Shown here: positions 41,412 through 57,250 of the stretch, piece by piece
Layout of the letters: every line of letters begins with the position of its first letter
How positions within the stretch are numbered: the first letter of the stretch is position 1
IMG/VR virus record: IMGVR_UViG_3300011116_001227
Reading direction: 5' to 3' (one strand)
From: a virus
Lineage: Duplodnaviria; Caudoviricetes
DNA: 64,000 nt
Program-made: the position numbers and the translations under genes
The notes under the pieces: generated by a model
Databases searched by the model: none
Seen by the model: only the letters and a program-made list of their open reading frames with translations
What the model was told of the DNA's origin: nothing

Positions 41412-41736
41412 AATTTTTCTCCAATTCGTCTTTTGAAACAAAGAAATCATTCGAACCGTCAGGATTACCATCGGGCGGCCTTAGGTCTACACCTCGAATA
41501 CTCACAGCAGTGACTGTATAAAGAACGCCACCCTGATCTTTATAGGTGTTAATTTCGTCCTTATCTTTGTCGTCCCTGACTTTACTTTTGATCTTTAAGC
41601 CTGGATCAAGCACAGATTTGTTCTTGCCGTCGACTTTGGTGTTGAAAGCAAGATCAACCTTTTCAGCAAGGGCAGATAATTTAGAATTCCACTCTTCCCG
41701 AATTAGTTTGATGAAGTCATTATCGTTTTTCTTCAT
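41398..41736 (-). CDS. hypothetical protein with leader variant
   Basis: MKKNDNDFIKLIREEW. Confidence 0.5.
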   Translation of the reverse strand: MKKNDNDFIKLIREEWNSKLSALAEKVDLAFNTKVDGKNKSVLDPGLKIKSKVRDDKDKDEINTYKDQGGVLYTVTAVSIRGVDLRPPDGNPDGSNDFFVSKDELEKNYVRD

Positions 41737-41747
41737 TACGCAATTTC

Positions 41748-42194
41748 TCAATCTGTAAGTATCAAGTCATTCAATCTAGTTACTTCTATCCCAGAATTTC
41801 TAAGTATCTTTAAACCTGACATGTCTCGATACTCAAAATCGTAAATTACGCTAGAAATATCAGCATTTACAATTAGTTTTGCACAAGAAACGCATGGGGC
41901 ATGCGTCAAGTACATAATTTTCTTTCTATTAAAATTATAATTACACTTTATTAAAGCATTAACTTCAGCATGAATCATGCCACTTTGCCCCGGCTGATCA
42001 CTTTCTGCTTCGTTTGGACCTCCTCTATAATTTCCGTTATAACCAAGAGACAAAAGACGAGTGTTGTCATCAGATACAACAATTGCGCCTACTTTTAGTC
42101 TGGGATCATAAGAACGCTCTGAAATATTCCAGGCAATCTTCATCCAGACCTGCGGCCAGGGTGGTCTTTTCATATTACTTTTCGCGTGTATCAA
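41748..42194 (-). CDS. dCMP deaminase
   Basis: KVGAIVV, GYNG, HAEVNAL, PCVSC. Confidence 0.9.
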   Translation of the reverse strand: MIHAKSNMKRPPWPQVWMKIAWNISERSYDPRLKVGAIVVSDDNTRLLSLGYNGNYRGGPNEAESDQPGQSGMIHAEVNALIKCNYNFNRKKIMYLTHAPCVSCAKLIVNADISSVIYDFEYRDMSGLKILRNSGIEVTRLNDLILTD

Positions 42195-42741
42195 TTAGAG
42201 GATGACACTTTAGACACCGAGGTTCATATAACTCTGCACCACCCACCTCGATCTCGTCTCCACCGACCTGTTTCTTGTATGTGTAATAAGCATCTCTATT
42301 ACAAACTACACAAACTGCGCTGAGTTTTTCAACTTTAGTTGCCCAAGGAAGCATCTTCTCGACTTCAGAAAAAACCAATCCCGTAGATGAAAGCTCAAGA
42401 GAAGAAACAACGACTGAGTAGCCATTTCTATACAGCCATATCAATGTTTCTGCAATGTTTGGAATCATAAATGCTTCATCAACAGCAACAACGTGAGGAT
42501 TTTCGTTGAGCGTTGCCAAATGTTGAATAACATCTGCACCTGATTTTACACACACAGCTGACATTTTTGATCCTCCGTGCGTGATGACTTCAGTCTCGCT
42601 GTAACGATCATCAATTTCTGGTTTGTACAATACAATTCGCTTATGCTGATACTTGTATCTTTCAAGCGAAGAAAGCAATCTTGATGTCTTTGAAGAGAAC
42701 ATCGGACCCGTATAAACAATAAATTCAGGTATATACATCAC
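42175..42741 (-). CDS. tdk: thymidine kinase (type II)
   Basis: GPMFSSKTS, DDRYS, VDEAF, CVVC, GGAELYEPRC. Confidence 0.92.
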   Translation of the reverse strand: MMYIPEFIVYTGPMFSSKTSRLLSSLERYKYQHKRIVLYKPEIDDRYSETEVITHGGSKMSAVCVKSGADVIQHLATLNENPHVVAVDEAFMIPNIAETLIWLYRNGYSVVVSSLELSSTGLVFSEVEKMLPWATKVEKLSAVCVVCNRDAYYTYKKQVGGDEIEVGGAELYEPRCLKCHPLIDTREK

Positions 42742-42747
42742 TTTACC

Positions 42748-43710
42748 TCACTGCATCTTCTGCAACCAATCCCAATTGTCTTCATACCACTTTATTGTTT
42801 TATCTAGACCTTCCCAGACTTTTACTCTTGGATCATAACCTATCAATTCTTTGGCTTTTGTAATATCAGCCTTCGTGTTCTTGACGTCACCGATTCTCCA
42901 AGGCGCGTTATGAGAAATTGCTTTTGGATATTTTGACTTCAAGTAATTAAGAATCTGTAAATTTGTAACAACTTCGCCGACACCAACATTAATAATCTCA
43001 GCTTTGAGATCTTCTTTACAGAGCGCTGATTTAATAAGTGCATCGACAACATTATCAACATAACACATGTCTCTGGATTGCGATCCATCACCGTCAGAAC
43101 GCATTGACTTATTAGACTTTATTGCAGTCAACCAGGCACTGACTGCGGTCGAGTAAGGAGAAGTTCCTAATTGATTCGGACCAAATACGTTGAAGAATCT
43201 TAAGCATACAGAATCGAGACCGTACAGAGAATAAAACAGCTTTAGATAATTCTCAATTATCGCTTTTTGAAGTGCATAAGGAGATTGCGGATTATTGATC
43301 GCAGTCTCTGGTGTAGGAAGTATGTCTGTATTGCCGTAAGAAGATGAAGATGCAGCAAAAACAAATCTTTTGACTGTGCCTTTTGTTTTACATGCATTTA
43401 ATAACATGAGTGTCTTTGACACATTTGTATCATTTGTTTCTACAGGATGTTCTACAGAATAAGTCACTCTTGGATTTGCTGCCAGATGAAAAACATATTC
43501 GTATGCTCCTTCACTAATTCTCTTTAAGACTTCGGGCGATGCAAAATCTTCAACCCACAAGCGCTCTGACCTGAGGTCTACATGCAAAAATTGAGCATTA
43601 CCATTTGAGAGATCATCTACGACGTCGACATGCCACCCTCTCGCATGAAGTGCATTCGAAAGATTACTTCCAATAAAACCTGCGCCACCTGTAACAAGAA
43701 CTTTAGTCAT
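42748..43710 (-). CDS. NAD-dependent NDP-sugar epimerase/dehydratase (extended SDR)
   Basis: ATG 43710; GGAGFIGS, SSSSYG, YALQK, FNVFGP. Confidence 0.9.
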   Translation of the reverse strand: MTKVLVTGGAGFIGSNLSNALHARGWHVDVVDDLSNGNAQFLHVDLRSERLWVEDFASPEVLKRISEGAYEYVFHLAANPRVTYSVEHPVETNDTNVSKTLMLLNACKTKGTVKRFVFAASSSSYGNTDILPTPETAINNPQSPYALQKAIIENYLKLFYSLYGLDSVCLRFFNVFGPNQLGTSPYSTAVSAWLTAIKSNKSMRSDGDGSQSRDMCYVDNVVDALIKSALCKEDLKAEIINVGVGEVVTNLQILNYLKSKYPKAISHNAPWRIGDVKNTKADITKAKELIGYDPRVKVWEGLDKTIKWYEDNWDWLQKMQ

Positions 43711-43762
43711 TCTCGACTCTCCAATTTCGCAATTATAACACTCGTAAAAAATGCGTATAAGA

Positions 43763-44758
43763 TCAAGTCTTCTTCCAAAAAGAATACATGTTCTTCTCAA
43801 TCTCGTAATTCATGAGCTTGACTTCTCTCTTTGGCTGAGTCTTAGCCCATGTTATCATCTTATCGACGAGCTGCTCGAAATTTGTGTCGTCCTTAAAGTC
43901 TAGTTCTCTCTTTGCCTTAGAGTGATCACAATAAGCAATCTTCACTTCATCACGTGGCTCAAGATGAACAATCTTAACATCCAATCCGTGACGCTTAGCA
44001 ACAAGCTGAAAACGCTGAGCAGCTTCGAGGATAGAAACATGACTATCAGCACCAATATTGTAAATTTCGCCATCACCCATCACCATCAATTTTTCAAAAG
44101 GCTCCATGTAAAAATCGACATCAGAGAAAGATCTCATCTGCAAACCATCTCCGAAGATAGTCAGAGGTTGTCCAGATAAACTTTGTCTAATCCAGATGCC
44201 AATTACATTCCTGTATTTATCCCAAATATTCTGGTAAACCCCGAATACATTGTGCGGTCTTACAATGCTGTAATTCAAACCAAAAAATCTATTTGCTGCT
44301 ACTAGATCCTGCTCCACAGTATATTTCGCAATACCGTACGGATCTTCAGGCAATTGTCTTTGAGTCTCTACGAAAGGCGGTGTCTGTGTGCCGTACACGT
44401 CCATCGAACTTGCAAAAATCATCTTTTTAACACTGTTGTTTATGCAAGAATTAATCACGTTTGCAGATGCAACGACATTATTTAAATAGTTGTGATTTCT
44501 GATAAACGGACTTAATCCAACAGCTGCATAAGCAGCAAAGTGATAAACAAAATCAGGTTTCTCTGTCTGCATCATGTAATTAGTCAGTCGAAGATCTGTT
44601 AAATTACATTCATAGATCTGAACTGACTGGTGAACTAAATCTCTATAACCTCCACTAAAATCGTCGATTCCAATTACCTTGTGACCCTTTTTTATAAAGT
44701 GTCTCGACAAATGGTTTCCAAGTAAACCTGCAACGCCAGTGATAAGAATTTTTGACAT
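43763..44758 (-). CDS. NAD-dependent NDP-sugar epimerase/dehydratase
   Basis: GVAGLLG, SSMDVYG, YGIAK, HNVFG. Confidence 0.9.
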   Translation of the reverse strand: MSKILITGVAGLLGNHLSRHFIKKGHKVIGIDDFSGGYRDLVHQSVQIYECNLTDLRLTNYMMQTEKPDFVYHFAAYAAVGLSPFIRNHNYLNNVVASANVINSCINNSVKKMIFASSMDVYGTQTPPFVETQRQLPEDPYGIAKYTVEQDLVAANRFFGLNYSIVRPHNVFGVYQNIWDKYRNVIGIWIRQSLSGQPLTIFGDGLQMRSFSDVDFYMEPFEKLMVMGDGEIYNIGADSHVSILEAAQRFQLVAKRHGLDVKIVHLEPRDEVKIAYCDHSKAKRELDFKDDTNFEQLVDKMITWAKTQPKREVKLMNYEIEKNMYSFWKKT

Positions 44759-44781
44759 ATAAGATCAATTATAACATTCTA

Positions 44782-45693
44782 TCAAATAACGTCTTGTCTG
44801 ACATGTGCGCTATTTAAATTGACGACAAGCGAAATACTCTTTGCTGGCCATAGAAATTTTTTCGTAATAAAAGCAGCAAGATGTGCAAGAAATCTTGTGT
44901 CAATAGACCCGTTTTTTCGAACGTCCGTGCTTCTAAGTGTACAAACAACACTGACATTTTCATTACGGGGAAGAAAATGAATAGAAGAGATACAAGAATT
45001 ACTTGAATAATAAAAACGTCTGGACGAAAGGTCTTGAGGCAAGTTGTAAGGATTTTTACCTTCTAACTCGTTCTCTATGATTTCACAGCATTCTTTCATA
45101 ATACTGCTGTAATATTCACATTCATGTTTATTAAGCATGATCTCATCGTCGCTATAAGAAGGATCGATTGACATCTTGAATTTTAGCTGCTCCTCGTAAG
45201 AAAATAGACCAGACACCCAAGATGATGTCATGTTACCTACTTCTCCAGGCAAAGAATTCTCTTGTGATTTTAAACGATTTGCAACATAATCAGCTAGTTG
45301 ATCCGCAGATTCTGAATTTCTAATCACAAGAACATTCGGCATGTATTGCAGTTTAGATACTTCTTCATCAAATATTTGTCTTAACTTTACAACAGATGCA
45401 GCATCTTGAAATTCATCTCCTCGAGATGATAAACGATCGAGTAAAACATCTTCGGGCGGAATCAAGACGACAAAAAAGTTGTTGAGATCTGATAATTCTT
45501 CTCTCAAAAATTGTCTTTGCTTCTCTACGTCACGACCGTACTGTCTTGCATAACAAAGCATTGAAAGACAGGAACGATCTTGAATGTTGTAACTAAAATT
45601 TGTCGCTTTGTGAAGCTTGCTAATAAAAGTTGTTTTACCTGCTAGATCGGGACCTTCAACTAGCAGATAACGAATTGGAAGTTGTGTCTTCAT
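44782..45693 (-). CDS. dNMP kinase fused to a minimal thymidylate-synthase/dCMP-hydroxymethylase-like domain
   Basis: N-terminal EGPDLAGKTT and DRS; C-terminal SCISSIHF, LRSTDV...D, SAH. Confidence 0.7.
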   Translation of the reverse strand: MKTQLPIRYLLVEGPDLAGKTTFISKLHKATNFSYNIQDRSCLSMLCYARQYGRDVEKQRQFLREELSDLNNFFVVLIPPEDVLLDRLSSRGDEFQDAASVVKLRQIFDEEVSKLQYMPNVLVIRNSESADQLADYVANRLKSQENSLPGEVGNMTSSWVSGLFSYEEQLKFKMSIDPSYSDDEIMLNKHECEYYSSIMKECCEIIENELEGKNPYNLPQDLSSRRFYYSSNSCISSIHFLPRNENVSVVCTLRSTDVRKNGSIDTRFLAHLAAFITKKFLWPAKSISLVVNLNSAHVRQDVI

Positions 45694-45697
45694 AATC

Positions 45698-46174
45698 TTA
45701 AGAACGTAAGATCAATCTTACCAAGCTACGTACAAGATTTTCAAATTTCATCTGTTCGTAACCTTTATTTAAGGTAACAAGATAATCTTTTGAAACTTCT
45801 GACTTCTTTGGGTCGATACTAACATAAGCATAAGCTTCGTAACATCTTCCTTCGCAGTTCACAGTCACTCTAATTTTTTTATAATCTTGTTCAGCTGTTC
45901 TCTTATCAGCGTCTTCGAAACAATCTAAAGATTTTTCTTGTATTGGAGTTGTCTCATATAAGACGCCCTTCACAAAATGTCCTGGTGATTTAATTGCTGT
46001 TGCTCCGTGCCACGTCTTAGAATATCCCGTAAATCCAAGATTAAAGTTAGGCAATACAGCATTTCCGATTTTTTTTAAGTTTAAATCTGTAAAACCACAA
46101 GGAGGACCGGACTTCGCTCTCTTGTGAAGCAAGTCTTGGTCCATGTTGGCGCCATAAGCAAAGTAGAAAGACAT
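45698..46174 (-). CDS. gamma-glutamylcyclotransferase (AIG2-like) family protein
   Basis: YFAYGANM, VKGVLY, LDCFE, AYAY. Confidence 0.8.
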   Translation of the reverse strand: MSFYFAYGANMDQDLLHKRAKSGPPCGFTDLNLKKIGNAVLPNFNLGFTGYSKTWHGATAIKSPGHFVKGVLYETTPIQEKSLDCFEDADKRTAEQDYKKIRVTVNCEGRCYEAYAYVSIDPKKSEVSKDYLVTLNKGYEQMKFENLVRSLVRLILRS

Positions 46175-46192
46175 ATTACGGGTAATTGTGAC

Positions 46193-49100
46193 TTATTCGA
46201 CTAAAGCTCTCATTTTATACACTGATGTAGAAAAACCCCAATTTGCATCGTTTGATGCTTGAGCTAACCACAATGTGTAAGGTTTGATTTCTTCTTTTGG
46301 TGTGCCCCATGCACGCAACCAAGCAGTCCTATGTTCATCATCGACGGCTTTAATTCGATAGAAGATCTTTCCATTTTTAGTCTTCTTCACCTGCACTTCT
46401 GCAGCGCAGAACCAACCAATACCTTCTGTCCCTGGTTCAATATCATGAAGTTTTGGAACTTGTTTTTCTGCAATCTTGGACATAACTGCAGGTGGAAACA
46501 AGAGATCTGAATCTACAGACTGTGTCAATTCTTGACACATCAGAATCTTTTCTTCACGCGACCAATCCTCAATTTCAGCAAGAGAAGCTAACGTCACATC
46601 AAGGAAAGCTTCAATCTTCTCACCAGCTTTAGCTTTCTTCTTGAGTTGTGATGCTGTCAATCCGTAAAGGCCTCTACGAAGCATCTCGTAATTTTTGTCA
46701 TCTGTTAATGCCAACAAAAGTTGCTTGTGATTATTAATTTTTCCGACGCTAAAATCTTCGAGCGATGACAATGCATCGATCTTGCAGAGTGCTGACAGAG
46801 CTGTCTTATTCATCTTGCTGTGGCGCCAATTACCTTCATTATCATACAACATCTCCTGGAGATTTTTGTAAGGACGAAGTTGCATGATCTCTTCGACTGC
46901 AGTCGAACCAATGCCCTTGACCGAGCTGAGGGGCGGAACGAAAGCGGCTGCTTCTTCAGAATACTGCCACTCTTTTCCTGAGTAGTTCACATCGATCTTA
47001 GAGAAACTGTAACCGAGCGCTTTGATCTCGGAGATAGTCTTAGCAAGACCTTTTGGATTTGTGTTCTCAGACTGCAGCGCCGTCGCGAGCCATTCTTTCT
47101 CGTAGTGGGTGTGGAGCCACGCAGCGTAGTAGGAGTCGATCGCATATGCTAAACTATGGGATTTATTGAAGCAATAGACTGACATGTTGTCAATTGTCTG
47201 CCAGAGCGGCTCTGTTACTTCAGGACCGACGCCGTGAATGCGCTGTGCACCTTCGATAAACTTCTGTTTCGCGATCTCTTTTTCGGACGTCTTCTTGTCC
47301 AAAGTGTCAAGAGACTTCTTGACAAGCGTCTTGCGTAGCTGATCTGCTTCACCCGGTGTGAAGCCTCCAAGCTTCTCAGCGAGTAACATAAATTGTTCCT
47401 GGTACACTACGAAATTCCTCGTCGGCCCTAGCACCTGTTCGATGATAGGGTGTGGATAATCGATGTGTTCTTTCTTCCTTGCCTCGACGAAAAGGTTGTG
47501 GACATTAGCTTTAAGTGGGCCAGGTCGATAGATCGCAGTGATGGCAGTCAAGTCTTCGATTTTCGTTGGCTTCACTGCTTTGCAGAACTTCCTCGCTCCC
47601 TCTGCTGTCATCTGAAACACAGAGACGAATGCTCCATCTTGGTAGACGTGCTTCCAGACAACAGGATCGTCCTGCTTCACATAACGACAGTTGAGGTGTT
47701 TGTCAAAGAATTCCCTAACGTCCAAGAAAGTAGGATTCGGATTGCCTTGCTTCACGAGGATCCGGCTGATGCAATTCTCCACGTCCTTGAGGAGAGTGAG
47801 ACCCAGGAAGTCGAACTTCAGGAAGCCGTTGTCCTCCAGGTTGCGGAAGTTCATGCCCTCCGTCCACGGTGTCTGAAGTTCACCTCGCACACCGATGATG
47901 GGCATATTCGCCGCGAGGTCGTCGGGATCGGCCAATAGAACGCCACCGGCGTGTCGACCCACCGATCGGTTCTGCATAAACAGGGTTTCGACGTGGGCAG
48001 CCACCTCTGGGTACTTCTCCATGAAGGCCGTGTACTTCGGCGAGTACTTCATGCAGTCCTCATGCTTCAGCACGAAGACCGACTTCTCCTGGTCCTCGTC
48101 TCGAGCCAGCGGCATCACCTCGTCCTGGAGAGGGCCGGTCATCTCGTTCACCTCCTCGAAGGGCACGCCGTAGATCTTGGCGATGTCCTTGACGAGGGAC
48201 TTGAGCTTCAGGGTGTTGAAGTTGGACACCGGGATCACGGCGTCATCGCCGAACAGAGTTCGTGCCGCATCGATAAGGACATCCCTGTCACCTGCGTCTG
48301 TATCGATATCCGGAAAGCTCACTCGGTGTCGTCCCAAAAATCTGCTCCAAAGCAAACCGTATGGTATCGGATCGATCTGCGTGATGCCTAACAGGAAGTT
48401 GACGAGCGATCCCGCACCACTCCCGCGGCCGCTTCCAAAGAGTGTCTTTTCCTTCGCAAGATTGAACACTTTATACATCGTAATGAAGTACGAAGCACAC
48501 TTCAAATACTTGATGTCACCGAGTTCGTATTTTGCTCTTTCCACATACGCAGGCTTGTCGTCTAAGCCTTCACGCTTCAGGCCCTCCATCACAAGCTCGG
48601 TAAGTTGCTTGAACGCAGATTTCTCAGGTGTGTCGACCTTCGGTAGCTTCGGTTTCGTGTCCACCCAGGTGTCTTCGCACTCGTTCCACGTGATGTCGTG
48701 GGTGCGTTCGATGGAGTCACGCACCAATTCTTCAGAACCCTTATAGAACTCGTACTGCTCGTAGGACCGCTTGTACTCATCCCACATCTGGGACGCGTTC
48801 TTTGGATATAGTTCGCACTTGAGGTCTTCGAACTTAGGCAGTGTTGCACCATCAAGTTTGGCACCCATCCAGCCGAGCTTCTTGTACAGCTCACGCGCTT
48901 GCCACTTTGAGGGATCTGGGTAGTGAGAATCACACGTGGAGACGAGCGGCACGCCTGTCTTCTTAGAAAGATCGATCAAGTACTTGTTGACTGTGTGTTG
49001 TTTCTCAAGCTTGTTGAACTGTAGCTCAAGATAAAAGTTTTTGTTGCCCACGGCGCTTTGGAATCTGTCAGTAAGATTCTCAAGATCTGTCATAATCTCG

Positions 49101-50227
49101 TCGTGCGGCTTATTCTGTGCTTCACCTAGAAGAATCTTGCCGCTGTAGATTCCGCCTAGACAGTTATGAACTACAACACCGTTCGCAAAGAAATTGTGGT
49201 TGTCTTCGACAGTAATATCGTAGACATCTTCTGTGTAGTCCAATTCTTCAACTTCGATCACGTCAACGAACTTGTAGGTTTCCATATTATTTTTCATCCA
49301 AGAAACAATCTTGACAGGCATGTTCTCCTTGAGCTCATCGGCACGAAGCCAGCCCTTGTCTGTCAAGACTTGATGGTCTGGTGTGAGTCTTACTTCTTTA
49401 CCATCAGCAGTCTTGAGCTTGACGATCTTTGCAGATGTCCTCGTCTTATCTCCCCACAAGACACGTTTGAACTGCAGTTCTTTGCTTTCTTCATTGAAGG
49501 AAAGAACTATGGGATTCTCCCCTGCCCTGTATCTCTCGATGACTCTTAGCAATGTCTCGGTACCCATGTCTGTTACAAGCTCAGCATCACCCGTAAGACA
49601 CGCCGTCGACCAGATGATGTCTGACCCGTATTTTTGGAGTAGCTCAAAGTCGATTCGAGGATAACGATAGAAGCCGTACTTGTAAGATGCCTTGACAAGT
49701 CTGAAGATGTTCGCAAGACCGTTCTGATTCTTAGCTACAGCAACAAGGTGATAGCGTCGTTGCCAGTCTCTGGATGACACGTCGACTGTCTTGGTTTCAT
49801 TCTCATCTTCAACGACGTGGCCGCCCTGTTCATCCTCTTCTTCGCCCGGATCGGCATCGATGTCTGTAGGAGTCTTGGCACGCTTCTCCATCTCAGCAGC
49901 AGTCTTTGCATCCTTAACGCTCTGCTTATGGGCTTCATAATCAATAGCCCACTGCTTCAGTGAGGGCACAAAGTAGAATTCCACACCGTAGAGCTGTCGA
50001 TACTTCTTGCCCTTCTTCTGTACCTTCAGAGCTGCAGATCGAGCATGTGCTAGACCGTTGCCATTACCATGATCTGTGAGTGCCCAGGCATCCATACCTT
50101 GTGACTCAGAGGTGACAAAGGCAATGTGATCGGCTGGATAGCCGAGTCCGTCGAAGGTGCTAAATCCGCTGTGGCCGTGGAAAGAAACAAATCTGTCAGG
50201 TGGGCGAATAAGATCTAATTTTGACAT
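46193..50227 (-). CDS. dnaE: DNA polymerase III alpha subunit with mini-intein
   Basis: PHP HGHS..STFDG, ALTDHG, GRGSGAGSL, FPDIDTD, GRHAGG, KFDFLGL, FNKSHS. Confidence 0.95.
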   Translation of the reverse strand: MSKLDLIRPPDRFVSFHGHSGFSTFDGLGYPADHIAFVTSESQGMDAWALTDHGNGNGLAHARSAALKVQKKGKKYRQLYGVEFYFVPSLKQWAIDYEAHKQSVKDAKTAAEMEKRAKTPTDIDADPGEEEDEQGGHVVEDENETKTVDVSSRDWQRRYHLVAVAKNQNGLANIFRLVKASYKYGFYRYPRIDFELLQKYGSDIIWSTACLTGDAELVTDMGTETLLRVIERYRAGENPIVLSFNEESKELQFKRVLWGDKTRTSAKIVKLKTADGKEVRLTPDHQVLTDKGWLRADELKENMPVKIVSWMKNNMETYKFVDVIEVEELDYTEDVYDITVEDNHNFFANGVVVHNCLGGIYSGKILLGEAQNKPHDEIMTDLENLTDRFQSAVGNKNFYLELQFNKLEKQHTVNKYLIDLSKKTGVPLVSTCDSHYPDPSKWQARELYKKLGWMGAKLDGATLPKFEDLKCELYPKNASQMWDEYKRSYEQYEFYKGSEELVRDSIERTHDITWNECEDTWVDTKPKLPKVDTPEKSAFKQLTELVMEGLKREGLDDKPAYVERAKYELGDIKYLKCASYFITMYKVFNLAKEKTLFGSGRGSGAGSLVNFLLGITQIDPIPYGLLWSRFLGRHRVSFPDIDTDAGDRDVLIDAARTLFGDDAVIPVSNFNTLKLKSLVKDIAKIYGVPFEEVNEMTGPLQDEVMPLARDEDQEKSVFVLKHEDCMKYSPKYTAFMEKYPEVAAHVETLFMQNRSVGRHAGGVLLADPDDLAANMPIIGVRGELQTPWTEGMNFRNLEDNGFLKFDFLGLTLLKDVENCISRILVKQGNPNPTFLDVREFFDKHLNCRYVKQDDPVVWKHVYQDGAFVSVFQMTAEGARKFCKAVKPTKIEDLTAITAIYRPGPLKANVHNLFVEARKKEHIDYPHPIIEQVLGPTRNFVVYQEQFMLLAEKLGGFTPGEADQLRKTLVKKSLDTLDKKTSEKEIAKQKFIEGAQRIHGVGPEVTEPLWQTIDNMSVYCFNKSHSLAYAIDSYYAAWLHTHYEKEWLATALQSENTNPKGLAKTISEIKALGYSFSKIDVNYSGKEWQYSEEAAAFVPPLSSVKGIGSTAVEEIMQLRPYKNLQEMLYDNEGNWRHSKMNKTALSALCKIDALSSLEDFSVGKINNHKQLLLALTDDKNYEMLRRGLYGLTASQLKKKAKAGEKIEAFLDVTLASLAEIEDWSREEKILMCQELTQSVDSDLLFPPAVMSKIAEKQVPKLHDIEPGTEGIGWFCAAEVQVKKTKNGKIFYRIKAVDDEHRTAWLRAWGTPKEEIKPYTLWLAQASNDANWGFSTSVYKMRALVE
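49163..49600 (-). mobile_element. 146-aa mini-intein (no endonuclease) in the dnaE PHP domain
   Basis: CLTGD block A, TPDH block B, VYDITVEDNHNFFANGVVVHN-C terminus; exteins rejoin as STA-CLGG. Confidence 0.92.
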
Positions 50228-50241
50228 GAGTCTCTACTAGT

Positions 50242-50271
50242 AATTTACCACAAAAGTACGCGTCTTTACAC
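50242..50271 (-). promoter_or_regulatory. sigma70-like promoter candidate GTGTAA-N18-TAAATT
   Basis: Directly upstream of the dnaE ATG; TG extension present. Confidence 0.4.
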
Positions 50272-50272
50272 G

Positions 50273-51265
50273 TCAAACTTTAGGGAAATGTTGCAGTAGA
50301 TCTGTACCTTTCGACTTAGCTTCATCGAGATACTTCAGAGGGTTATAGTTCTTAGATGAATTTGAAGAAATCCAATCGTAAGTCGCCTTGACGCCGCCCT
50401 CCAAGTCAAGCTTCGGAGACCAGCCAATTTGCTTTCTGACCTTGGCAGATGACAGTCTGTGGTTTCCGAGATAATCAGTCTTTGGATACCAGCGGACGAT
50501 TTTTTCTACGTTTTTCCCGACAACACGAGAAACAAGATTCATGATCTCTGCGGCGGTGTGAGGTGTCTCAGCTGCGACGTTAAAATCAGTACCCCAACCA
50601 TCCTTGCTCTCACAGATCATCGACACGGCTTCACAGTAATCGGACACGTGGAGATAATCCTTGATCTTCGCGGGGTCTAAGAAGATGTCAACAGAATCTT
50701 TGTTCTGCAAGGATGCATAGATACTCTTGGCGATGAGTGAATTCATGTCACCCTCGTCACCAAAAGCGAAGAGAGGACGCACCACAGACCAGCGTTTTGC
50801 CATGCTGGTGATGATCTGTTCACCTGCAAGCTTCTGCACGCCATAATAAGTGAGAGGCTTTCTAGCTGAGTCTTCAAAAATCTGCTGATTCTGGTAGGAA
50901 GGCGTGTCATAAATCACGGTGGTACCCATGTAGCACACGCCGGCACCAGCTGCGTTAGCTGCTCTAACAATATTGTAAGAACCGTGCACGTTGCTCAGCG
51001 TCGCTTCTGCGGGATTGAGAGCAACCACGTCTGTTCCCACAACGGCTGCATTGTGCACAACAACATCAACCCCGTATTTTTTAAAAGCTCTTGACCAAAC
51101 GTCTTCTGAATTTCGGTGCACACACACTTCACCCGTTTTTGGTAACGTAAGCATGTTGTCTCCAATTAGATCAGCATCCGATAGAATCGAGTGACCTCGA
51201 GCAATCAGCTTCTTCTTCAAATGTCTAGCAATAAATCCTGCACCACCCGTAATGTAAAAACGCAT
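50273..51265 (-). CDS. NAD-dependent NDP-sugar epimerase/dehydratase
   Basis: ATG 51265; GGAGFIA, HNAAVVG, YGVQK. Confidence 0.85.
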   Translation of the reverse strand: MRFYITGGAGFIARHLKKKLIARGHSILSDADLIGDNMLTLPKTGEVCVHRNSEDVWSRAFKKYGVDVVVHNAAVVGTDVVALNPAEATLSNVHGSYNIVRAANAAGAGVCYMGTTVIYDTPSYQNQQIFEDSARKPLTYYGVQKLAGEQIITSMAKRWSVVRPLFAFGDEGDMNSLIAKSIYASLQNKDSVDIFLDPAKIKDYLHVSDYCEAVSMICESKDGWGTDFNVAAETPHTAAEIMNLVSRVVGKNVEKIVRWYPKTDYLGNHRLSSAKVRKQIGWSPKLDLEGGVKATYDWISSNSSKNYNPLKYLDEAKSKGTDLLQHFPKV

Positions 51266-51365
51266 GTCTCCTCCGATGCAGAGCATTATAACAAAAAAAG
51301 CGACCAAATACAAGGTCACTTTTTTATAGATCTCGAGATTTTGAGAATGAATTACAAGCTAAAAA

Positions 51366-51632
51366 TCACATCATGTATTCTTTAAACAGCTCGGCCAATC
51401 CGTCCCGCGCGAAGTCTTTTGCTTCTTCACTGTCATACTCCTCGGCGATAGCATTCTGCTCTATGTTCATACGCAAAGATTCTAAAGCAGCTTTTGCTGC
51501 GTCTATTTTAGTAATATCTGCAAGTGATCCTAAAGCAAGTCTGCCTGGAGTTAAAGTGTCGTCGCCCTCGTTGAGAACCTTTGAGACCTCTTCTGCAATG
51601 ATCTTGCGGAGTTGTGATGATGTTAATTTCAT
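51366..51632 (-). CDS. putative virion protein with MKLT leader
   Basis: MKLTSSQLRKIIAEEVSKVLNEG. Confidence 0.65.
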   Translation of the reverse strand: MKLTSSQLRKIIAEEVSKVLNEGDDTLTPGRLALGSLADITKIDAAKAALESLRMNIEQNAIAEEYDSEEAKDFARDGLAELFKEYMM

Positions 51633-51698
51633 TATTTATCCTAAGTGACTATTGATTTTAAATATAAGTCAATGCTGCTTTAATCTTTTCTGCAATAT

Positions 51699-51727
51699 AA
51701 AAATGGCGACTATTTTCATAGTCGCCA
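51699..51727 (-). terminator. intrinsic terminator
   Basis: Minus strand TGGCGACTAT-GAAA-ATAGTCGCCA followed by TTTTT. Confidence 0.8.
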
Positions 51728-51940
51728 AGGTGTTTTTAACTTCAGTTTTTAATCAGCAACAGACGCAATGATTAAAGTTTGTAGATTTTAATTTATTACT
51801 TTATCTCGTAGTTCTATAAAGAAGAACGTCATCGAGCTCTTTTTATCTTTTTAAAACTTAATCTTGCGTTTAAATACTCCAATTCAACTCTTTACACCCA
51901 TAACTAATTATAGAGTTTGTTGGAATTTATCAACTAATCA

Positions 51941-52414
51941 TCACTCAATTTCTTTGTCATACGGCTCGTAAAGCATCTCACCTTCAGACTTACAGCGTTC
52001 CAGGTAGTCCTCGAGCTCTTCAAAAGAAGTACACACACGCGAGCCTGATCTTGACAACATGAGATTAAACTTTGCTCCGGCAGGAAGTCCTGCGCAGAAA
52101 TAGATAATGTGCTTATCAAAAGCAGTGGCATATCCACATTCCATGATTGTGCCAAGATCCTTGTCACGTGTATTCACCACGAGAAAGTCGGCCTCGCGAA
52201 TGTGCTTTAGGTTCCCCTGATAGGTTGCATCTTGAACCTCTCGAGATGCATTAGGGGGACAGATAAAGATCCTTCGAGGAGACGCCATATCAATCCAGTC
52301 CTTGCGTGCCTCCATGATCTGCTCAAGTCTTGTAAGCTCTGCATCCTGTACAGGATTAAACCATCCGGCTGCAAGATACATCTTCAGAGTACGTCCAAAC
52401 TTATTCTCACTCAT
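51941..52414 (-). CDS. nucleoside 2-deoxyribosyltransferase / NMP hydrolase family protein
   Basis: YLAAGWF, ADFLVV, DLGTIMECGYA. Confidence 0.8.
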   Translation of the reverse strand: MSENKFGRTLKMYLAAGWFNPVQDAELTRLEQIMEARKDWIDMASPRRIFICPPNASREVQDATYQGNLKHIREADFLVVNTRDKDLGTIMECGYATAFDKHIIYFCAGLPAGAKFNLMLSRSGSRVCTSFEELEDYLERCKSEGEMLYEPYDKEIE

Positions 52415-52528
52415 TATTGTGTCCTTTCAATCGCTCGATTTCTAATAGTAGACTATACTTGTCAATTGAACAAGAATCAGATTTCGCGATGTTTTCATGC
52501 AATTAGTACTAAATAGTACTAGACAAGT

Positions 52529-53509
52529 TCACTTGTTTGACTTCCAGTTATTGTGCTCAGACTTGAGCTTATCAAACTCAGAAATACCTGAATTCCAATG
52601 CTGAAGGAACTTTCTCTGTGGGCCATCTCCGTGAGTACCATTTAGCTCTTCGCGGGTGCACTGGTAGATTGTATCCTCGGGATGGTACTCGAACTTATCA
52701 TTCTTTGGAATGGGCCAGTATAGGTTTGTGCCGCGGGACACGAACTTATCACCCTCCTTCACGCGGAAGGTCTTGATGTAGTGCATGTCGGGCTTGTTGA
52801 AGTCCACCATCGTGGTGAACTCCGGAATAACCTTGGCAACCTCGACTGCCATTCTTACCGCAAGCAGGTTGTCACTAGATGTTTGAATTTGAGAATCTTG
52901 ACGCTGATAAATGAAGCCCACCAGGTCCTTGAGCGAAAGACGCATATAGTAGAACGAGGTCATGCACTTAGGAAGAATGAGTCGTGCGTCCATCATAGAC
53001 ACGACCTTGGAATCAGTCATATCAGCGTAGAGCTGCTTGGACTCTTCGACAAGCTTCTTCCATCTCGCCAAGAACTCAGGTGAATTCTCTACGGGCTCAG
53101 GAATGACTGCATCGTCGTCGCGGAGGTCGCGATCGCCGGTGCACTGTGCAGCAAAAGTGCCAGCACGGTGGCGGATGATGTGTGTCACCTCTTGGAAAGA
53201 CATACCGCTCAGACGGAATGTGAAACCGAGACATTCCATGGGAGCCGGAAGTGTTCGTCCACCAAAGACGTCCTCCAGGTTCTTAGACAGATCATGATCT
53301 GATGCTGACTCGGGATGGATGTCAGGTCTATCTGCCCAAGTTGCCTTAACATAATGCCAAGCCACGTTCCAAGCTTGCTGTCGCGTCGGATGGTCGACAA
53401 GCTCGATCTTTAGTGCATCGATGTTGTTGAGGAAGTTGGTCTTGACTGGTCGTCCGAACTTTAATTCCATGGGTAGTTCAATCGGCTGTAGGTCTTTATT
53501 AATGGGCAT
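52529..53509 (-). CDS. divergent ThyX-like flavin-dependent protein
   Basis: FTFRLSG, IIRHR, DARLILP and QR..SQIQ follow ThyX, but the RHRx7S Ser is Cys. Confidence 0.75.
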   Translation of the reverse strand: MPINKDLQPIELPMELKFGRPVKTNFLNNIDALKIELVDHPTRQQAWNVAWHYVKATWADRPDIHPESASDHDLSKNLEDVFGGRTLPAPMECLGFTFRLSGMSFQEVTHIIRHRAGTFAAQCTGDRDLRDDDAVIPEPVENSPEFLARWKKLVEESKQLYADMTDSKVVSMMDARLILPKCMTSFYYMRLSLKDLVGFIYQRQDSQIQTSSDNLLAVRMAVEVAKVIPEFTTMVDFNKPDMHYIKTFRVKEGDKFVSRGTNLYWPIPKNDKFEYHPEDTIYQCTREELNGTHGDGPQRKFLQHWNSGISEFDKLKSEHNNWKSNK

Positions 53510-53581
53510 AATTTCTCCAAATATGAGTTGTAGTCTTCAATTATTGTCTATGAGAGGATCAAAGTACAATTGCAATCTTCA

Positions 53582-54523
53582 TCAAAGAATATGGGCAATC
53601 TTATCGATTACGTCTTCATTTTCTTCGACGTAGATAATTCCTCTAACATTTTTTACTTCTTCGTTGTATGATTTTTTAGGAACTACGCATATGACGCCGT
53701 GCTTTGCGTATTCTGACGCATGTTTAGCTGAATCATCTACAGCAAATAATTTTGCAGTCTTATAGAAGTCTTGTCCCGCGAGCCAAGCAAATTTTTCTGG
53801 CGTGAATACTACGTCATCTGCAGGAATCTTGTTGAGGTGCAGCCACGCGTATGTATCGTAAAAGCAAGTTAGATTTTGTGAATCTCTTGCTGTAACTATC
53901 TGCACCCAGTATCCCTTCTGTTTTAAAGCAATTAAGAAGTTGTAGTACTTCTTGCTGAGCTCTAGACGCAAAAATCCATGGTCTTCGATGAATTTCTTAA
54001 AAAAGAATTCGCTGTTTAAACCATGCTCTTTAAACTTCACTGTGTTGTAATATTCTGGACAATACGGGTCCATGAATATTCCTGTTTGATCTGTAACATA
54101 TTTACAGAATTCATTTCTAAACTCTGCCAACACATCGTCGATGTCAAACAAAACGATGGGTTCTCCTGACCACTTCTTGTCTCGAAGTTGGTGTCTGTAA
54201 TGAAGATAATGATCTTTCTGTTCAAGAGCTGACGTCAATTGTTCTGAAGTAAGATTCCATAAATTTGCAATTGCCAAGATGTAACGATACGCGTCAGCAG
54301 ACTTATACAAGATCTTTTGCAGATCTGTTTCTCTTGCTTCTCTGCGATGTTCTTTGTAGTTGACAGCACTGCACAAATCTGTAATCTCGGAGTGAAGTGC
54401 AAGACTTAAAGTTTTAAACTCTTCGATCTTCTGTTCGTCAGTTAACTCAGATGAATTATAAAAGTAATTTGAAAAAGTCTTTTGCGTTCTCAACGCATCA
54501 ACAAGGTAATTCCAGTTAGACAT
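53582..54523 (-). CDS. MazG-like NTP pyrophosphatase fused to a HAD 5'(3')-nucleotidase
   Basis: LHSEITDL...SADAY N-domain; FDIDDVL, VTAR, AVDDS HAD motifs. Confidence 0.7.
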   Translation of the reverse strand: MSNWNYLVDALRTQKTFSNYFYNSSELTDEQKIEEFKTLSLALHSEITDLCSAVNYKEHRREARETDLQKILYKSADAYRYILAIANLWNLTSEQLTSALEQKDHYLHYRHQLRDKKWSGEPIVLFDIDDVLAEFRNEFCKYVTDQTGIFMDPYCPEYYNTVKFKEHGLNSEFFFKKFIEDHGFLRLELSKKYYNFLIALKQKGYWVQIVTARDSQNLTCFYDTYAWLHLNKIPADDVVFTPEKFAWLAGQDFYKTAKLFAVDDSAKHASEYAKHGVICVVPKKSYNEEVKNVRGIIYVEENEDVIDKIAHIL

Positions 54524-54526
54524 GTA

Positions 54527-54943
54527 TCAATAACCGCTCTTTAGACGCTGAACATTAATTGCACCCTTCTTCATAAAAGCTTCGTGCAATTCTTCAGAAG
54601 AAATTCCACTATAAATGACGATGCCAAAGAAGTAGTGTAATGCGTCTACGAGCTCTTCTTTGTAAGATTCTCTATCGAATTCTTTGACTTCTGTCACGCG
54701 ATGATTCTTGCTGTTCTTCAAGAGATGATTAGCTTCAAAAAGCTCGTGCATACATTCGTGAGCTAATCCTTTTAAAATTTGTTGATTCTTCTTTTCTTTT
54801 AAATCGAGAGGAAAATCCGGGTAACCTCTATCGTCCCTTAACAAATAATTAAAGTCACGTTGTTGATTGTACATCTCATCAAGTTTATCCATGCAAACCT
54901 CTTGTGTTATTTTAAACCCGACAACACTCAAAGTACAATACAA
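54527..54943 (-). CDS. all-alpha dNTP pyrophosphatase (MazG / dimeric dUTPase / dCTPase-like)
   Basis: HECMHELFEA, EELVDALHYF. Confidence 0.75.
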   Translation of the reverse strand: MYCTLSVVGFKITQEVCMDKLDEMYNQQRDFNYLLRDDRGYPDFPLDLKEKKNQQILKGLAHECMHELFEANHLLKNSKNHRVTEVKEFDRESYKEELVDALHYFFGIVIYSGISSEELHEAFMKKGAINVQRLKSGY

Positions 54944-57217: not shown

Positions 57218-57250
57218 AAGGTTTCACCCCCTATGCCTAAATATATCGAA

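What the first reader, a model, noticed from the sequence alone, without database searches (positions are those of the whole stretch)
41748..54943. Candidate new pyrimidine (cytosine) modification pathway clustered around dnaE
Seen in one co-oriented block: dCMP deaminase, TK, three extended-SDR sugar epimerases, a kinase-TS-like fusion, GGCT, dnaE, an NDT-family hydrolase, a divergent ThyX, a MazG-HAD fusion and a second all-alpha dNTPase. Known: T4 hmC synthesis uses a TS-fold dCMP hydroxymethylase, a dNMP kinase, an all-alpha dCTPase and dCMP deaminase, then adds sugars; some T4 relatives add sugars other than glucose. Inference: this block has the same functional logic but with atypical enzymes, so the DNA may carry an unusual, possibly sugar-bearing base. 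No DNA glycosyltransferase was recognised in this window.
Basis: partly seen in the sequence, partly recalled or inferred. Interest (0 to 1): 0.8.

Follow-up and report, generated by a model that had tools for sequence, protein, structure and literature searches.

The report
Phage cytosine-modification gene module around dnaE
An uncultured freshwater/marine phage carries a conserved gene block around its DNA polymerase that follows the T4/RB69 recipe for replacing cytosine with a modified base. It includes an apparently undescribed enzyme that fuses a nucleotide kinase to a stripped-down, cytosine-type thymidylate-synthase domain, but a sugar on the DNA is not shown.

Summary
Their order is conserved in 80 IMG/VR phage contigs, down to 54% identity of the ThyX-like anchor protein.

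The key gene is p303 (44782-45693). Its N-terminal half is a YorR/thymidylate-kinase-like kinase. Its C-terminal ~155 aa form a reduced thymidylate-synthase fold. That fold keeps the catalytic Cys, the Arg-Arg pair, Arg-Ser and His, and has Asp where ThyA has Asn177, as in T4 dCMP hydroxymethylase.

- The best structural match is phage HY126 dCMP hydroxylase.
- The small all-alpha pyrophosphatase is homologous to T4 gp56 dCTPase/dUTPase.
- Close relatives separately encode an ordinary dUTPase and thymidylate kinase.
- They have ThyX but no ThyA or DHFR.
- In proven 5-hydroxycytosine clusters (RB69, DLP3, RL38J1), a YorR-like kinase lies next to the TS homolog. Here the two are fused.

Best reading (0.55): pre-replicative synthesis of a C5-modified dCTP of unknown chemistry.

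The sugar claim is unsupported. No DNA glycosyltransferase was found in the window. The NDT looks like an ordinary transferase, and GGCT is not conserved. An ordinary salvage module remains a serious rival (0.3).

This scan's first readers noted the same fusion on this and one other genome.

The parts
54527..54943 (-). all-alpha NTP pyrophosphatase (T4 gp56-like); candidate dCTPase/dUTPase
   Evidence: Pfam dUTPase_2 at 2e-6 and PHROG 'nucleotide pyrophosphohydrolase'. The ExxE...EExxD motifs are invariant in 16 relatives. hhalign to T4 gp56 gives prob 95.6%, E 1.1e-8, aligned through the shared C-terminal GY. Present in 73 of 80 loci. Substrate not determined.
53582..54523 (-). fusion of a degenerate all-alpha (gp56/dUTPase_2-like) domain with a HAD phosphatase (NT5C-like); candidate dNMP 5'-nucleotidase
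   Evidence: Pfam NT5C 26.3 bits against a cut-off of 24.8. The HAD motifs DxDD, T..R, K and DDS are invariant, but the N-domain has lost the EE pair. Weak profile hits: C. jejuni dimeric dUTPase at E 0.029, and HY126 9iqw / RB69p051. Present in 67 of 80 loci.
52529..53509 (-). divergent ThyX-like flavin-dependent thymidylate synthase with ~90-aa C-terminal extension
   Evidence: Pfam Thy1 60.2 bits, above cut-off. TIGR02170 scores 33.7, below its cut-off of 87.9. The AF2 model has the ThyX fold: TM about 0.7 to T. maritima/Mtb ThyX and PolB. The motif is RHRAG[ST]FAAQCTGDR. The equivalents of R147 and R174 are kept, and S88 is replaced by an invariant Cys.
51941..52414 (-). nucleoside 2-deoxyribosyltransferase family enzyme
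   Evidence: PF05014 at 2.2e-13. The catalytic Glu92 and the C-terminal IE are invariant. The profile is closest to Bacillus NDT 6evs (E 6.8e-14); DNPH1 reaches only E 0.73. Present in 77 of 80 loci.
51366..51632 (-). 88-aa ORF of unknown function
   Evidence: No family hit. Found only in the two closest relatives.
50273..51319 (-). extended SDR (SDR3), NDP-sugar epimerase/dehydratase-like, specificity unknown
   Evidence: PF01370 at 1.8e-28. Best PDB match is T. maritima UDP-glucose 4-epimerase at 1e-19, with YxxxK kept. It lies between NDT and DnaE in 63 of 80 loci.
46193..50227 (-). DnaE-type replicative polymerase alpha subunit with a mini-intein (about aa 216-355)
   Evidence: Pfam PHP, DNA_pol3_alpha, finger, HHH_6 and Intein_splicing. 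Relatives lack residues ~216-350.
45698..46174 (-). GGACT/AIG2-like protein; an insertion specific to this phage, not part of the conserved module
   Evidence: PF06094 at 2.9e-10. No hit in any of the 80 related loci. In L002, dnaE is followed directly by p303.
44782..45693 (-). p303: YorR/TMPK-like nucleotide kinase (aa ~8-147) fused to a reduced TS-fold domain (aa ~150-303) with catalytic Cys234 and cytosine-type Asp265
   Evidence: AF2 model: pLDDT 91.4. Foldseek: HY126 dCMP hydroxylase 9iqu at 2.8e-6, ThyAs and T4 dCH. N-domain: YorR at Z 14.5, TMPKs at Z 12. PDB profile: 1b49. hhalign to T4 gp42: 79%, E 1.6e-5. Family residues across 82 sequences are counted. Predicted ThyA-like dimer: score 0.85 against 0.00 for the controls.
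43763..44758 (-). extended SDR (SDR2), GalE-like
   Evidence: PF01370 at 4e-46 and TIGR01179 at 1.9e-39, below cut-off. Present only in the closest relatives.
42748..43800 (-). extended SDR (SDR1), UDP-hexose/HexNAc 4-epimerase-like (WbgU/WbpP/TviC type)
   Evidence: PDB WbgU at 1.1e-51. NCBIfam TviC at 1.2e-49, below cut-off. It follows p303 in about 13-17 loci.
42175..42741 (-). thymidine kinase
   Evidence: PF00265 at 6.6e-41.
41748..42194 (-). dCMP deaminase
   Evidence: PF00383 at 1.3e-18 and ComEB-type TIGR02571 at 4.2e-18.

Best explanation
The block is a phage nucleotide-metabolism module. Its distinctive part most likely makes a C5-modified deoxycytidine nucleotide before replication, by the logic of T4 and RB69.

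Proposed steps:

1. The gp56-like all-alpha pyrophosphatase turns dCTP (and perhaps dUTP) into the monophosphate (inferred).
2. The reduced TS-fold domain of p303 binds dCMP through Asp265. It attacks C6 with Cys234 in a ThyA-like dimeric active site that borrows Arg225/Arg226 from the partner subunit, and installs a C5 substituent. The residues are shown; the reaction is inferred. Hydroxymethyl, hydroxyl or methyl cannot be told apart, and the cofactor is unknown because the usual folate-binding segments are missing.
3. The fused YorR/TMPK-like kinase phosphorylates the product, and host NDP kinase and the phage DnaE do the rest (inferred).
4. In parallel, dCMP deaminase, the ThyX-like enzyme and TK supply dTMP. 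The HAD nucleotidase and NDT recycle deoxyribose (inferred from families).

Whether the base is later glycosylated with UDP-sugars made by the interleaved SDRs is open and currently unsupported.
For: Residues. C234, R225/R226, R254/S255, D265 and H297 are invariant in 14 clade members. They are kept in 70-79 of 82 diverse family representatives.

Alignments. In the PDB profile and hhalign alignments, C234 falls on T4 gp42 Cys148 and D265 on Asp179. Among the Foldseek matches is PDB 6l18, a D179N mutant of the T4 enzyme crystallised with dTMP, which fits Asp179 selecting cytosine.

Fold. The confident model (pLDDT 91) best matches phage HY126 dCMP hydroxylase, followed by ThyAs and T4 dCH.

Dimer. 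The predicted homodimer scores 0.85 against a best control of 0.00. That mark was reached by 20 of 30 proteins solved as pairs of one chain and by 1 of 23 solved as single chains. The three runs agree in at least 95% of contacts and pLDDT is at least 90. R225/R226 touch R254/S255/S295/H297 of the other copy. A like complex (the ThyA dimer) has been solved, so this shows likeness, not binding.

Fusion logic. In the experimentally proven 5hoC clusters of DLP3, RB69 and RL38J1, a YorR/TMPK-like 'nucleotide kinase' lies beside the dCMP-modifying TS homolog (PMC13326640; RB69 map). The P-loop GPDxaGKTT is shared with RB69p045.

Pyrophosphatase. aaNTPase is homologous to T4 gp56 (95.6%).

Redundancy in relatives. 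Relatives encode a separate trimeric dUTPase (3 of 5) and a canonical TMPK (2 of 5, the two closest). aaNTPase and the p303 kinase are therefore not needed for those ordinary jobs.

TS repertoire. The relatives have ThyX-like plus the TS-like domain, with no ThyA and no DHFR. In jumbo phages TS and ThyX are normally alternatives (PMC7824862).

Conservation. The module order is kept in 80 loci. The p303 family has 122 representatives at E<1e-30, mostly full-length ~300-aa fusions plus shorter fragments.

Weak support. There is no palindrome avoidance in the window.
Against: No enzymology or DNA chemistry exists, and the phage is uncultured.

The TS-like domain is only about 155 aa. Pfam PF00303 does not detect it. 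By my reading of the model it lacks the ThyA 'small domain' and C-terminal tail that bind folate, so a cofactor and a reaction cannot be assigned.

The position equivalent to ThyA Asp169 varies across the family (N 44, D 28, H 4, E 2).

Sequence matches to gp42 and gp48 are weak (E about 1e-5 pairwise, 0.014 against PDB).

dCMP deaminase, TK, ThyX, NDT and the HAD nucleotidase all have ordinary salvage roles.

A DNA N6/N4 methyltransferase lies nearby.

No DNA glycosyltransferase was found in the window.
Confidence: 0.55

Rival explanations
1. This is an ordinary dNTP-supply and salvage module with no base replacement. dCMP deaminase, ThyX and TK make dTMP. The HAD nucleotidase and NDT move deoxyribose between bases for an AT-rich genome. 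The all-alpha enzymes sanitise dUTP. p303 is a nucleotide kinase whose TS-like domain is a nucleotide-binding or regulatory remnant, or does chemistry that never reaches DNA.
For: Every family except the TS-like domain has a well-known salvage role. The NDT is closest to genuine transferases. R147 and R174 of ThyX are kept, which fits a uracil substrate. The TS-like domain is truncated and Pfam does not detect it. YorR and NT5C-like genes also occur in SPbeta-type prophages (own knowledge). The window is 35-50% GC.
Against: The catalytic Cys, RR, RS, Asp and His are conserved across 82 divergent family members, which a mere binding remnant would not need. Close relatives already have separate dUTPase and TMPK genes. 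The kinase + TS-homolog pairing matches proven modification clusters.
Confidence: 0.3
2. The modified base is a thymine/uracil derivative made by the unusual ThyX-like enzyme, for example a hydroxymethyl-dUMP synthase. p303 is then secondary.
For: The ThyX-like protein is atypical. It scores below the TIGR02170 cut-off. An invariant Cys replaces Ser88, the R90/Y91 positions are not aligned, and there is a conserved ~90-aa C-terminal extension with 72% mean column identity. Geobacillus phage GR1 has a 46%-identical homolog within about 2 kb of a glycosyltransferase, an HD protein and a P-loop NTPase, with a nitroreductase immediately upstream.
Against: No flavin-dependent hydroxymethylase is known. 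RHR, R147 and R174 are kept. TK and dCMP deaminase argue that normal T is used. No 5-HMUDK-type or other thymidine hypermodification genes were seen.
Confidence: 0.07
3. The SDRs (and UDPGP) serve a glycan pathway, such as virion protein or cell-surface glycosylation, rather than DNA. This is compatible with either reading of p303.
For: Relatives carry a ~20-kb glycan island. It holds a DegT aminotransferase, GDP-mannose dehydratase, NeuB, a methyltransferase, and GT1 and GT2 genes. It lies far from the module, and its nuclease-GT-GT core is shared with Flavobacterium phage immuto. The SDRs are generic 4-epimerase-like enzymes. UDPGP occurs only in the closest relatives.
Against: SDR3 and SDR1 keep fixed places inside the nucleotide module next to dnaE, not in the glycan island, across the clade. 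In RB69 the sugar-donor genes also lie beside the polymerase gene.
Confidence: 0.6

Closest known systems
T4 hydroxymethylcytosine pathway (gp42 dCMP hydroxymethylase, gp1 dNMP kinase, gp56 dCTPase/dUTPase, cd, tk, td)
   Same: A TS-fold enzyme with catalytic Cys and cytosine-type Asp. A gp56 homolog. dCMP deaminase and TK are present. A second, separate thymidylate synthase activity is also present.
   Different: The TS-fold is cut down to about 155 aa and fused to a YorR/TMPK-like kinase that is unrelated to gp1. The thymidylate synthase is ThyX-type, not ThyA. There is no DHFR. No alpha/beta-glucosyltransferase was found. The polymerase is DnaE, not family B.
5-hydroxycytosine/arabinosyl-5hoC pathway of RB69, DLP3, HY126 and RL38J1 (AfhB-type flavin-dependent dCMP hydroxylase; PMC13326640)
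   Same: The best structural match of the TS-like domain is HY126 AfhB. A YorR/TMPK-like nucleotide kinase partners the TS homolog. The C-terminal SAHV/I motif is shared with RB69 gp48. The cluster lies next to the DNA polymerase gene. NDP-sugar genes are interleaved.
   Different: The diagnostic D169N is absent in the window protein, which has Asp257; 44 of 82 family members do have Asn. The kinase and the TS homolog are one polypeptide. No GT4-type DNA glycosyltransferase is adjacent. The sugar genes are 4-epimerase-like SDRs, not the arabinose-5-P route.
Flavin-dependent thymidylate synthase ThyX, and its relative PolB (UMP/dUMP methylase)
   Same: ThyX fold with TM about 0.7. RHR and the R147- and R174-equivalent arginines are kept.
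   Different: Cys replaces Ser88, and R90/Y91 are not conserved in the alignment. There is a ~90-aa extra C-terminal domain. The protein scores below NCBI's equivalog cut-off.
SPbeta YorR / NT5C-type YorS and Lactobacillus/Bacillus-type NDT salvage enzymes
   Same: The kinase domain matches YorR at Z 14.5. The HAD matches NT5C. The NDT matches 6evs.
   Different: Here these enzymes are fused to TS-like and all-alpha domains, and they are embedded in a conserved replication-linked module.

Membership tests
Thymidylate synthase / dCMP hydroxymethylase superfamily (TS fold), for p303 aa ~150-303 | Catalytic Cys (E. coli C146 / T4 C148) on the central strand | tested here: met
   C234 aligns with T4 C148. 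It is invariant in the clade and present in 76 of 82 family members.
Thymidylate synthase / dCMP hydroxymethylase superfamily (TS fold), for p303 aa ~150-303 | Phosphate-binding Arg-Ser (R166/S167) and an Arg-Arg pair donated by the partner subunit of an obligate dimer | tested here: met
   R254/S255 and R225/R226 are conserved. In the predicted homodimer (0.85 vs 0.00), R225/R226 contact R254/S255 of the other copy. That prediction may rest on memory of ThyA dimers.
Thymidylate synthase / dCMP hydroxymethylase superfamily (TS fold), for p303 aa ~150-303 | Overall TS fold | tested here: met
   Foldseek gives E 2.8e-6 to 1e-4 to AfhB, ThyAs and T4 dCH. Only about 110-230 columns align and TM is about 0.25-0.4, because the domain is reduced.
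Thymidylate synthase / dCMP hydroxymethylase superfamily (TS fold), for p303 aa ~150-303 | Folate-binding elements (small domain with W80/W83/Y94, C-terminal tail) and a match to Pfam PF00303 | tested here: not met
   PF00303 is not matched in the window protein or in its relatives. The domain is about 155 aa against 217-264 aa in known members. The missing segments are inferred from the model's secondary structure, not from a residue-level superposition.
Cytosine-specific branch (T4 gp42, MilA, dCMP methylases/hydroxylases) | Asp in place of ThyA Asn177 (T4 D179) | tested here: met
   D265 aligns with D179. It is present in 79 of 82 family members.
5hodCMP synthase (AfhB / RB69 gp48 type) | Asn in place of ThyA Asp169 (D169N; diagnostic in PMC13326640) | tested here: not met
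   The window protein has Asp257. Across the family the position is N 44, D 28, H 4, E 2.
5hodCMP synthase (AfhB / RB69 gp48 type) | Bound flavin cofactor and O2-dependent hydroxylation | not testable with these tools
   This needs purified protein. Only fold likeness to 9iqu/9iqc was seen.
All-alpha NTP pyrophosphatase (MazG/dUTPase_2/T4 gp56) | ExxE ... ExxD metal-binding motifs and homology to gp56 | tested here: met
   E67, E70, E96, E97 and D100 are invariant. hhalign to gp56 gives 95.6%. Pfam dUTPase_2 scores 28.6 bits against a cut-off of 22.9.
All-alpha NTP pyrophosphatase (MazG/dUTPase_2/T4 gp56) | dCTP as substrate | not testable with these tools
   No specificity determinants could be read from the sequence. 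The separate trimeric dUTPase in relatives is only indirect evidence.
ThyX (flavin-dependent thymidylate synthase) | ThyX fold, RHR motif, dUMP-binding arginines | tested here: met
   Pfam scores 60.2 against a cut-off of 24.8.
ThyX (flavin-dependent thymidylate synthase) | Full ThyX signature RHRxxSxxxxSxRY and equivalog-level score | tested here: not met
   The motif reads RHRAG[ST]FAAQCTGDR. TIGR02170 scores 33.7 against a cut-off of 87.9.
Nucleoside 2-deoxyribosyltransferase | Catalytic Glu nucleophile in the D.G(T/S)..E.G motif; family HMM | tested here: met
   E92 is invariant. PF05014 scores 50.8 against a cut-off of 28.8. 6evs matches at 6.8e-14.
HAD 5'(3')-deoxyribonucleotidase (NT5C) | HAD motifs I-IV and the family HMM | tested here: inconclusive
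   The motifs are intact. Pfam scores only 26.3 against a cut-off of 24.8. Weak likeness to AfhF-type sugar-phosphate phosphatases is also seen.
DNA glycosyltransferase (T4 a/b-GT or GT4-type DNA arabinosyl/hexosyl transferases) | A GT gene in or beside the module | tested here: inconclusive
   No GT family hit was found among the window ORFs scanned. GT1 and GT2 genes exist elsewhere in 3 of 5 relatives. The rest of this phage's genome is not held.

The most novel reading that the evidence does not exclude
A widespread clade of large freshwater/marine phages replaces cytosine with a C5-oxygenated or hydroxymethylated cytosine. The base is made by a new minimal TS-fold enzyme fused to its own nucleotide kinase. 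The enzyme uses a non-folate cofactor (a flavin, or a simple pterin recycled by the clade-wide pterin-4a-carbinolamine dehydratase). The base is then glycosylated with UDP-hexose/HexNAc sugars supplied by the SDRs interleaved with the replication genes.
Probability: 0.15. Interest if true: 0.85.

Novelty: new variant of a known kind. Interest (0 to 1): 0.65.

Why it matters
If p303 is active, it would be the smallest known catalytic TS-fold domain and the first found fused to the kinase that takes its product onward.

It would help address how the TS superfamily switches cofactor and substrate, a question left open in PMC13326640.

It would also mark a large, environmentally abundant phage clade as carrying non-canonical cytosine. 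The clade has 80+ IMG/VR contigs, and the family has 122 sequence clusters at E<1e-30. This phage turns up in river, lake and marine plankton metagenomes from 9 studies. Non-canonical cytosine would affect how such genomes are sequenced, how hosts restrict them, and which enzymes can be mined for DNA-modification tools.

If p303 is inactive, the block is still a well-defined, conserved nucleotide-salvage module of an uncultured phage lineage.

Tried and rejected
- **Close relatives.** Megablast of the block against 50,697 phage records found nothing. tblastn of p303 against phages also found nothing. The search for related loci with p303 alone found nothing, so the ThyX-like protein was used as the anchor instead.
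- **Genome access.** No whole genome is held for the window.
- **Cellular relatives.** A scan of GTDB genome contigs with the ThyX-like profile found no relative.
- **Other window ORFs.** Atlas look-ups gave no glycosyltransferase lead. p377 gave HEAT/LRV-like leads under 0.8. p404 is DUF6267-like. p422 gave nothing. The window's p422 and p404 are not homologs of the similar-sized GT1 proteins of relatives.
- **Sequencing runs.** No Nanopore run was listed, and no listed holder is on record as RNA. A miscall-at-C test and expression could therefore not be examined, and read laying was not used.
- **HAD domain.** The match to RB69p051/9iqw is too weak (prob 47%, E 0.5) to reassign it to a sugar phosphatase.
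- **hhalign.** It could not tell a gp42-like from a gp48-like TS domain (79% vs 77%).
- **Literature.** Two searches for a described kinase-TS fusion found none, and none for Geobacillus phage GR1. This does not prove that none exists.
- **GGCT.** It was considered as a pathway member and rejected, because it is absent from all relatives.

Full report
**Observation.** The interval 41748-54943 holds thirteen consecutive minus-strand ORFs.

- dCMP deaminase
- thymidine kinase
- three extended SDRs
- a 303-aa protein, called p303 here
- a GGACT/AIG2-like protein
- DnaE
- an NDT-family protein
- a ThyX-like protein
- an all-alpha/HAD fusion
- a small all-alpha NTP pyrophosphatase

The window is part of a large uncultured phage. 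No whole genome is held for it. It has no nucleotide match among 50,697 phage records, and no relatives were found in GTDB genomes. The same DNA occurs in river, lake and marine plankton metagenomes of nine studies.

**Is the cluster real?** I used the ThyX-like protein as a probe. IMG/VR returned 80 loci with 54-89% identity, from contigs of up to 284 kb. tblastn of the window's proteins onto these loci shows one recurring order: aaNTPase, all-alpha/HAD, ThyX-like, NDT, SDR3, DnaE, p303, SDR1, TK, dCMP deaminase.
- NDT is present in 77 loci, aaNTPase in 73, the HAD fusion in 67 and SDR3 in 63.
- p303 is present in 23 loci, that is in nearly every locus that extends past dnaE.
- GGCT has no counterpart in any locus, and SDR2 occurs only in the closest relatives, so neither belongs to the conserved module.
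- Co-orientation itself is uninformative, because about 38 kb of the window runs leftward.

**The key gene, p303.** An alignment of 14 clade members shows an N-terminal P-loop (EGPDLxGKTT), a DR motif and an RGDE lid. The C-terminal part carries invariant SRR, C234, R254-S255, D265 and S295-x-H297.
- *Sequence profile.* Against PDB sequences the N-half hits SPbeta YorR (9e-8). The C-half hits T4 deoxycytidylate hydroxymethylase 1b49 (E 0.014). In that alignment C234 falls on Cys148 and D265 on Asp179.
- *hhalign.* Against T4 gp42 it gives 79% probability, E 1.6e-5, with the same register. Against the RB69 gp48 5-hydroxy-dCMP synthase it gives 77%.
- *Structure.* The AlphaFold model is confident (pLDDT 91.4, pTM 0.87). 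Foldseek's best match is phage HY126 dCMP hydroxylase AfhB (9iqu, 2.8e-6), followed by thymidylate synthases and T4 dCH. Residues 8-147 superpose on YorR (Z 14.5), deoxyadenosine kinase and thymidylate kinases (Z about 12).
- *Dimer.* A homodimer prediction scores 0.85 against 0.00 for the best control. That mark was reached by 20 of 30 proteins solved as pairs of one chain and by 1 of 23 solved as single chains. Runs agree in at least 95% of contacts and pLDDT is at least 90. Its interface puts R225/R226 of one copy against R254/S255/S295/H297 of the other, as in ThyA. Because ThyA dimers are solved, this shows likeness rather than proof.
- *Family size.* An exhaustive profile search finds 1270 family members, 122 of them at E<1e-30. 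Most of the listed hits are ~300-aa full-length fusions, and the rest are shorter fragments.
- *Residue conservation.* Across 82 full-length representatives, Cys is kept in 76, Arg-Ser in 77/78, the Asn177-position Asp in 79 and His in 76. The Asp169-equivalent position is Asn in 44 and Asp in 28.
- *What is missing.* The domain is only about 155 aa and escapes Pfam PF00303. By the model's secondary structure it lacks the ThyA small domain and C-terminal tail. The cofactor is therefore unknown.

**Context that favours a dedicated cytosine pathway.**
- The small all-alpha enzyme keeps the ExxE...EExxD motifs. It is homologous to T4 gp56 dCTPase/dUTPase (95.6%, E 1.1e-8).
- Three of five relatives with long contigs, including the two closest, encode a separate trimeric dUTPase. 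The two closest also encode a canonical thymidylate kinase. The gp56-like enzyme and the p303 kinase are therefore not needed for those ordinary jobs.
- None of the five relatives has a ThyA or DHFR. A published survey notes that TS and ThyX are normally alternatives in jumbo phages (PMC7824862).
- Most tellingly, in the proven 5hoC clusters of DLP3, RB69 and RL38J1 a 'nucleotide kinase' sits beside the dCMP-modifying TS homolog, and its best structural hits are YorR or thymidylate kinase (PMC13326640 Table 1; RB69 map). Its P-loop, GPDxaGKTT, matches that of p303. p303 therefore looks like a Rosetta-stone fusion of these two partners.
- The window shows no palindrome avoidance. This is only weakly consistent with protected DNA.

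**The other enzymes.**
- *ThyX-like.* The protein has the ThyX fold (TM about 0.7). It keeps RHR and the R147- and R174-equivalent arginines, so a uracil nucleotide substrate is likely. It is atypical in three ways: Cys replaces Ser88, it has an extra ~90-aa C-terminal domain, and it scores below NCBI's equivalog cut-off. Its only cultured relative is in Geobacillus phage GR1 (46% identity). There it lies within about 2 kb of a glycosyltransferase, an HD protein and a P-loop NTPase, with a nitroreductase immediately upstream and NDT and DnaE within about 5 kb.
- *NDT.* It is closest to genuine nucleoside deoxyribosyltransferases (6evs, 6.8e-14). DNPH1-type hydrolases reach only E 0.73.
- *HAD fusion.* The HAD half has intact catalytic motifs but only a borderline NT5C score. 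Its all-alpha half has lost the EE pair.
- Together with TK and dCMP deaminase, these enzymes are fully compatible with ordinary dTTP supply and deoxyribose salvage.

**The sugar question.** SDR1 resembles UDP-HexNAc/hexose 4-epimerases (WbgU, 1e-51). SDR3 is a generic NDP-sugar epimerase/dehydratase-like enzyme. A UDPGP-family gene lies at 22935-24011, but only the closest relatives share it.

No glycosyltransferase family hit was found among the window ORFs scanned. Atlas look-ups of three unknown ORFs gave no GT lead.

Relatives do have GT1 and GT2 genes, but these sit in a distant glycan island. That island also holds a DegT aminotransferase, GDP-mannose dehydratase, NeuB and a methyltransferase. 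Its nuclease-GT-GT core is shared with Flavobacterium phage immuto.

The fixed position of SDR3 and SDR1 inside the replication-linked module is suggestive, and RB69 also keeps its sugar-donor genes beside its polymerase gene. Even so, DNA glycosylation is not supported by anything tested here.

**Verdict.** A pre-replicative C5 modification of cytosine by a new fused kinase/minimal-TS enzyme is the best reading (0.55). An ordinary salvage module is the main rival (0.3).

The chemistry of the substituent, the cofactor and any sugar decoration remain open. Two literature searches found no description of such a fusion. First-stage notes of this scan had flagged the same fusion on this genome and on one other.

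I rate it a new variant of a known kind, interest 0.65.

Noticed in passing
window 55504-58153 (-): The IMP dehydrogenase/GMP reductase-family gene is fractured. The N-half ends in a Hint N-domain (57251-58153). A free-standing NUMOD3 endonuclease ORF follows (56111-57217). Then comes an intein C-segment plus the C-half (55504-56148). Relatives L001, L002 and L004 have the two halves adjacent with no intein. From my own knowledge, this resembles the 'fractured gene' split-intein arrangement described from marine metagenomes.
   Followed up: partly
window ~49163-49582 (-), inside dnaE: A mini-intein of about 135 aa (DnaE residues ~216-355) lies in the PHP domain. It is absent from the DnaE of relatives L002, L004, L008 and L016.
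   Followed up: partly
window 35466-35837 (-): Pterin-4a-carbinolamine dehydratase (PF01329, 4.6e-8) lies next to a carbon-nitrogen hydrolase (35834-36592). The family is present in 5 of 5 relatives, within roughly 5-25 kb of the module. It could hint at pterin-dependent chemistry. No link to p303 was shown.
   Followed up: partly
window 15653-20097 (+): A complete PrkA / DUF444 (YeaH) / SpoVR trio, a bacterial stress/sporulation-associated operon, lies in this phage. PrkA homologs occur in Thermus phages phiYS40/TMA, in Ralstonia phage RsoM2USA and in >600-kb uncultured phages.
   Followed up: partly
window 10468-10803, 11973-13601, 63683-64000, 40683-41471, 13982-14776: The window carries several host-like auxiliary genes: an IF-1-like protein, GroEL, Hsp20 (cut by the window end), Fe/Mn superoxide dismutase and Fpg/Nei DNA glycosylase.
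   Followed up: no
window 61535-62314 and 60961-61533 (-): An N6/N4 DNA methyltransferase lies next to an HNH endonuclease. The pair is conserved with p377, p184 and p200 upstream of the module in the closest relatives. Its target base and site are unknown.
   Followed up: no
window 22935-24011 and 32173-32709 (-): The window has a eukaryote-type UDP-sugar pyrophosphorylase (PF01704) and a cytidylyltransferase-like protein, so it has further nucleotide-sugar or nucleotidyl-transfer capacity outside the block.
   Followed up: partly
L081 (Geobacillus phage GR1, OK896991.1, 23.9-34.8 kb): This is the only cultured phage with the same ThyX-like subfamily (46% identity) and NDT (40%). These lie in one stretch with thioredoxin, an HD protein, a 459-aa glycosyltransferase, a P-loop NTPase, a nitroreductase/dihydropteridine reductase, DnaE and dUTPase. 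It is a possible modification cluster. No paper on this phage was found.
   Followed up: partly
L091 (G001 160-179 kb), L090, L092: Relatives carry a glycan island: a DegT aminotransferase, GDP-mannose 4,6-dehydratase, a methyltransferase, a PhyH dioxygenase, NeuB, a PD-(D/E)XK nuclease and tandem GT1 genes. The nuclease-GT-GT arrangement recurs in Flavobacterium phage immuto and Microcystis phage Mel-JY01.
   Followed up: partly
window 14843-15559, 20147-20968, 56111-57217, 60961-61533: The window carries many homing-endonuclease-type genes (NUMOD3, GIY-YIG, HNH). Related loci have variable insertions between module genes.
   Followed up: no
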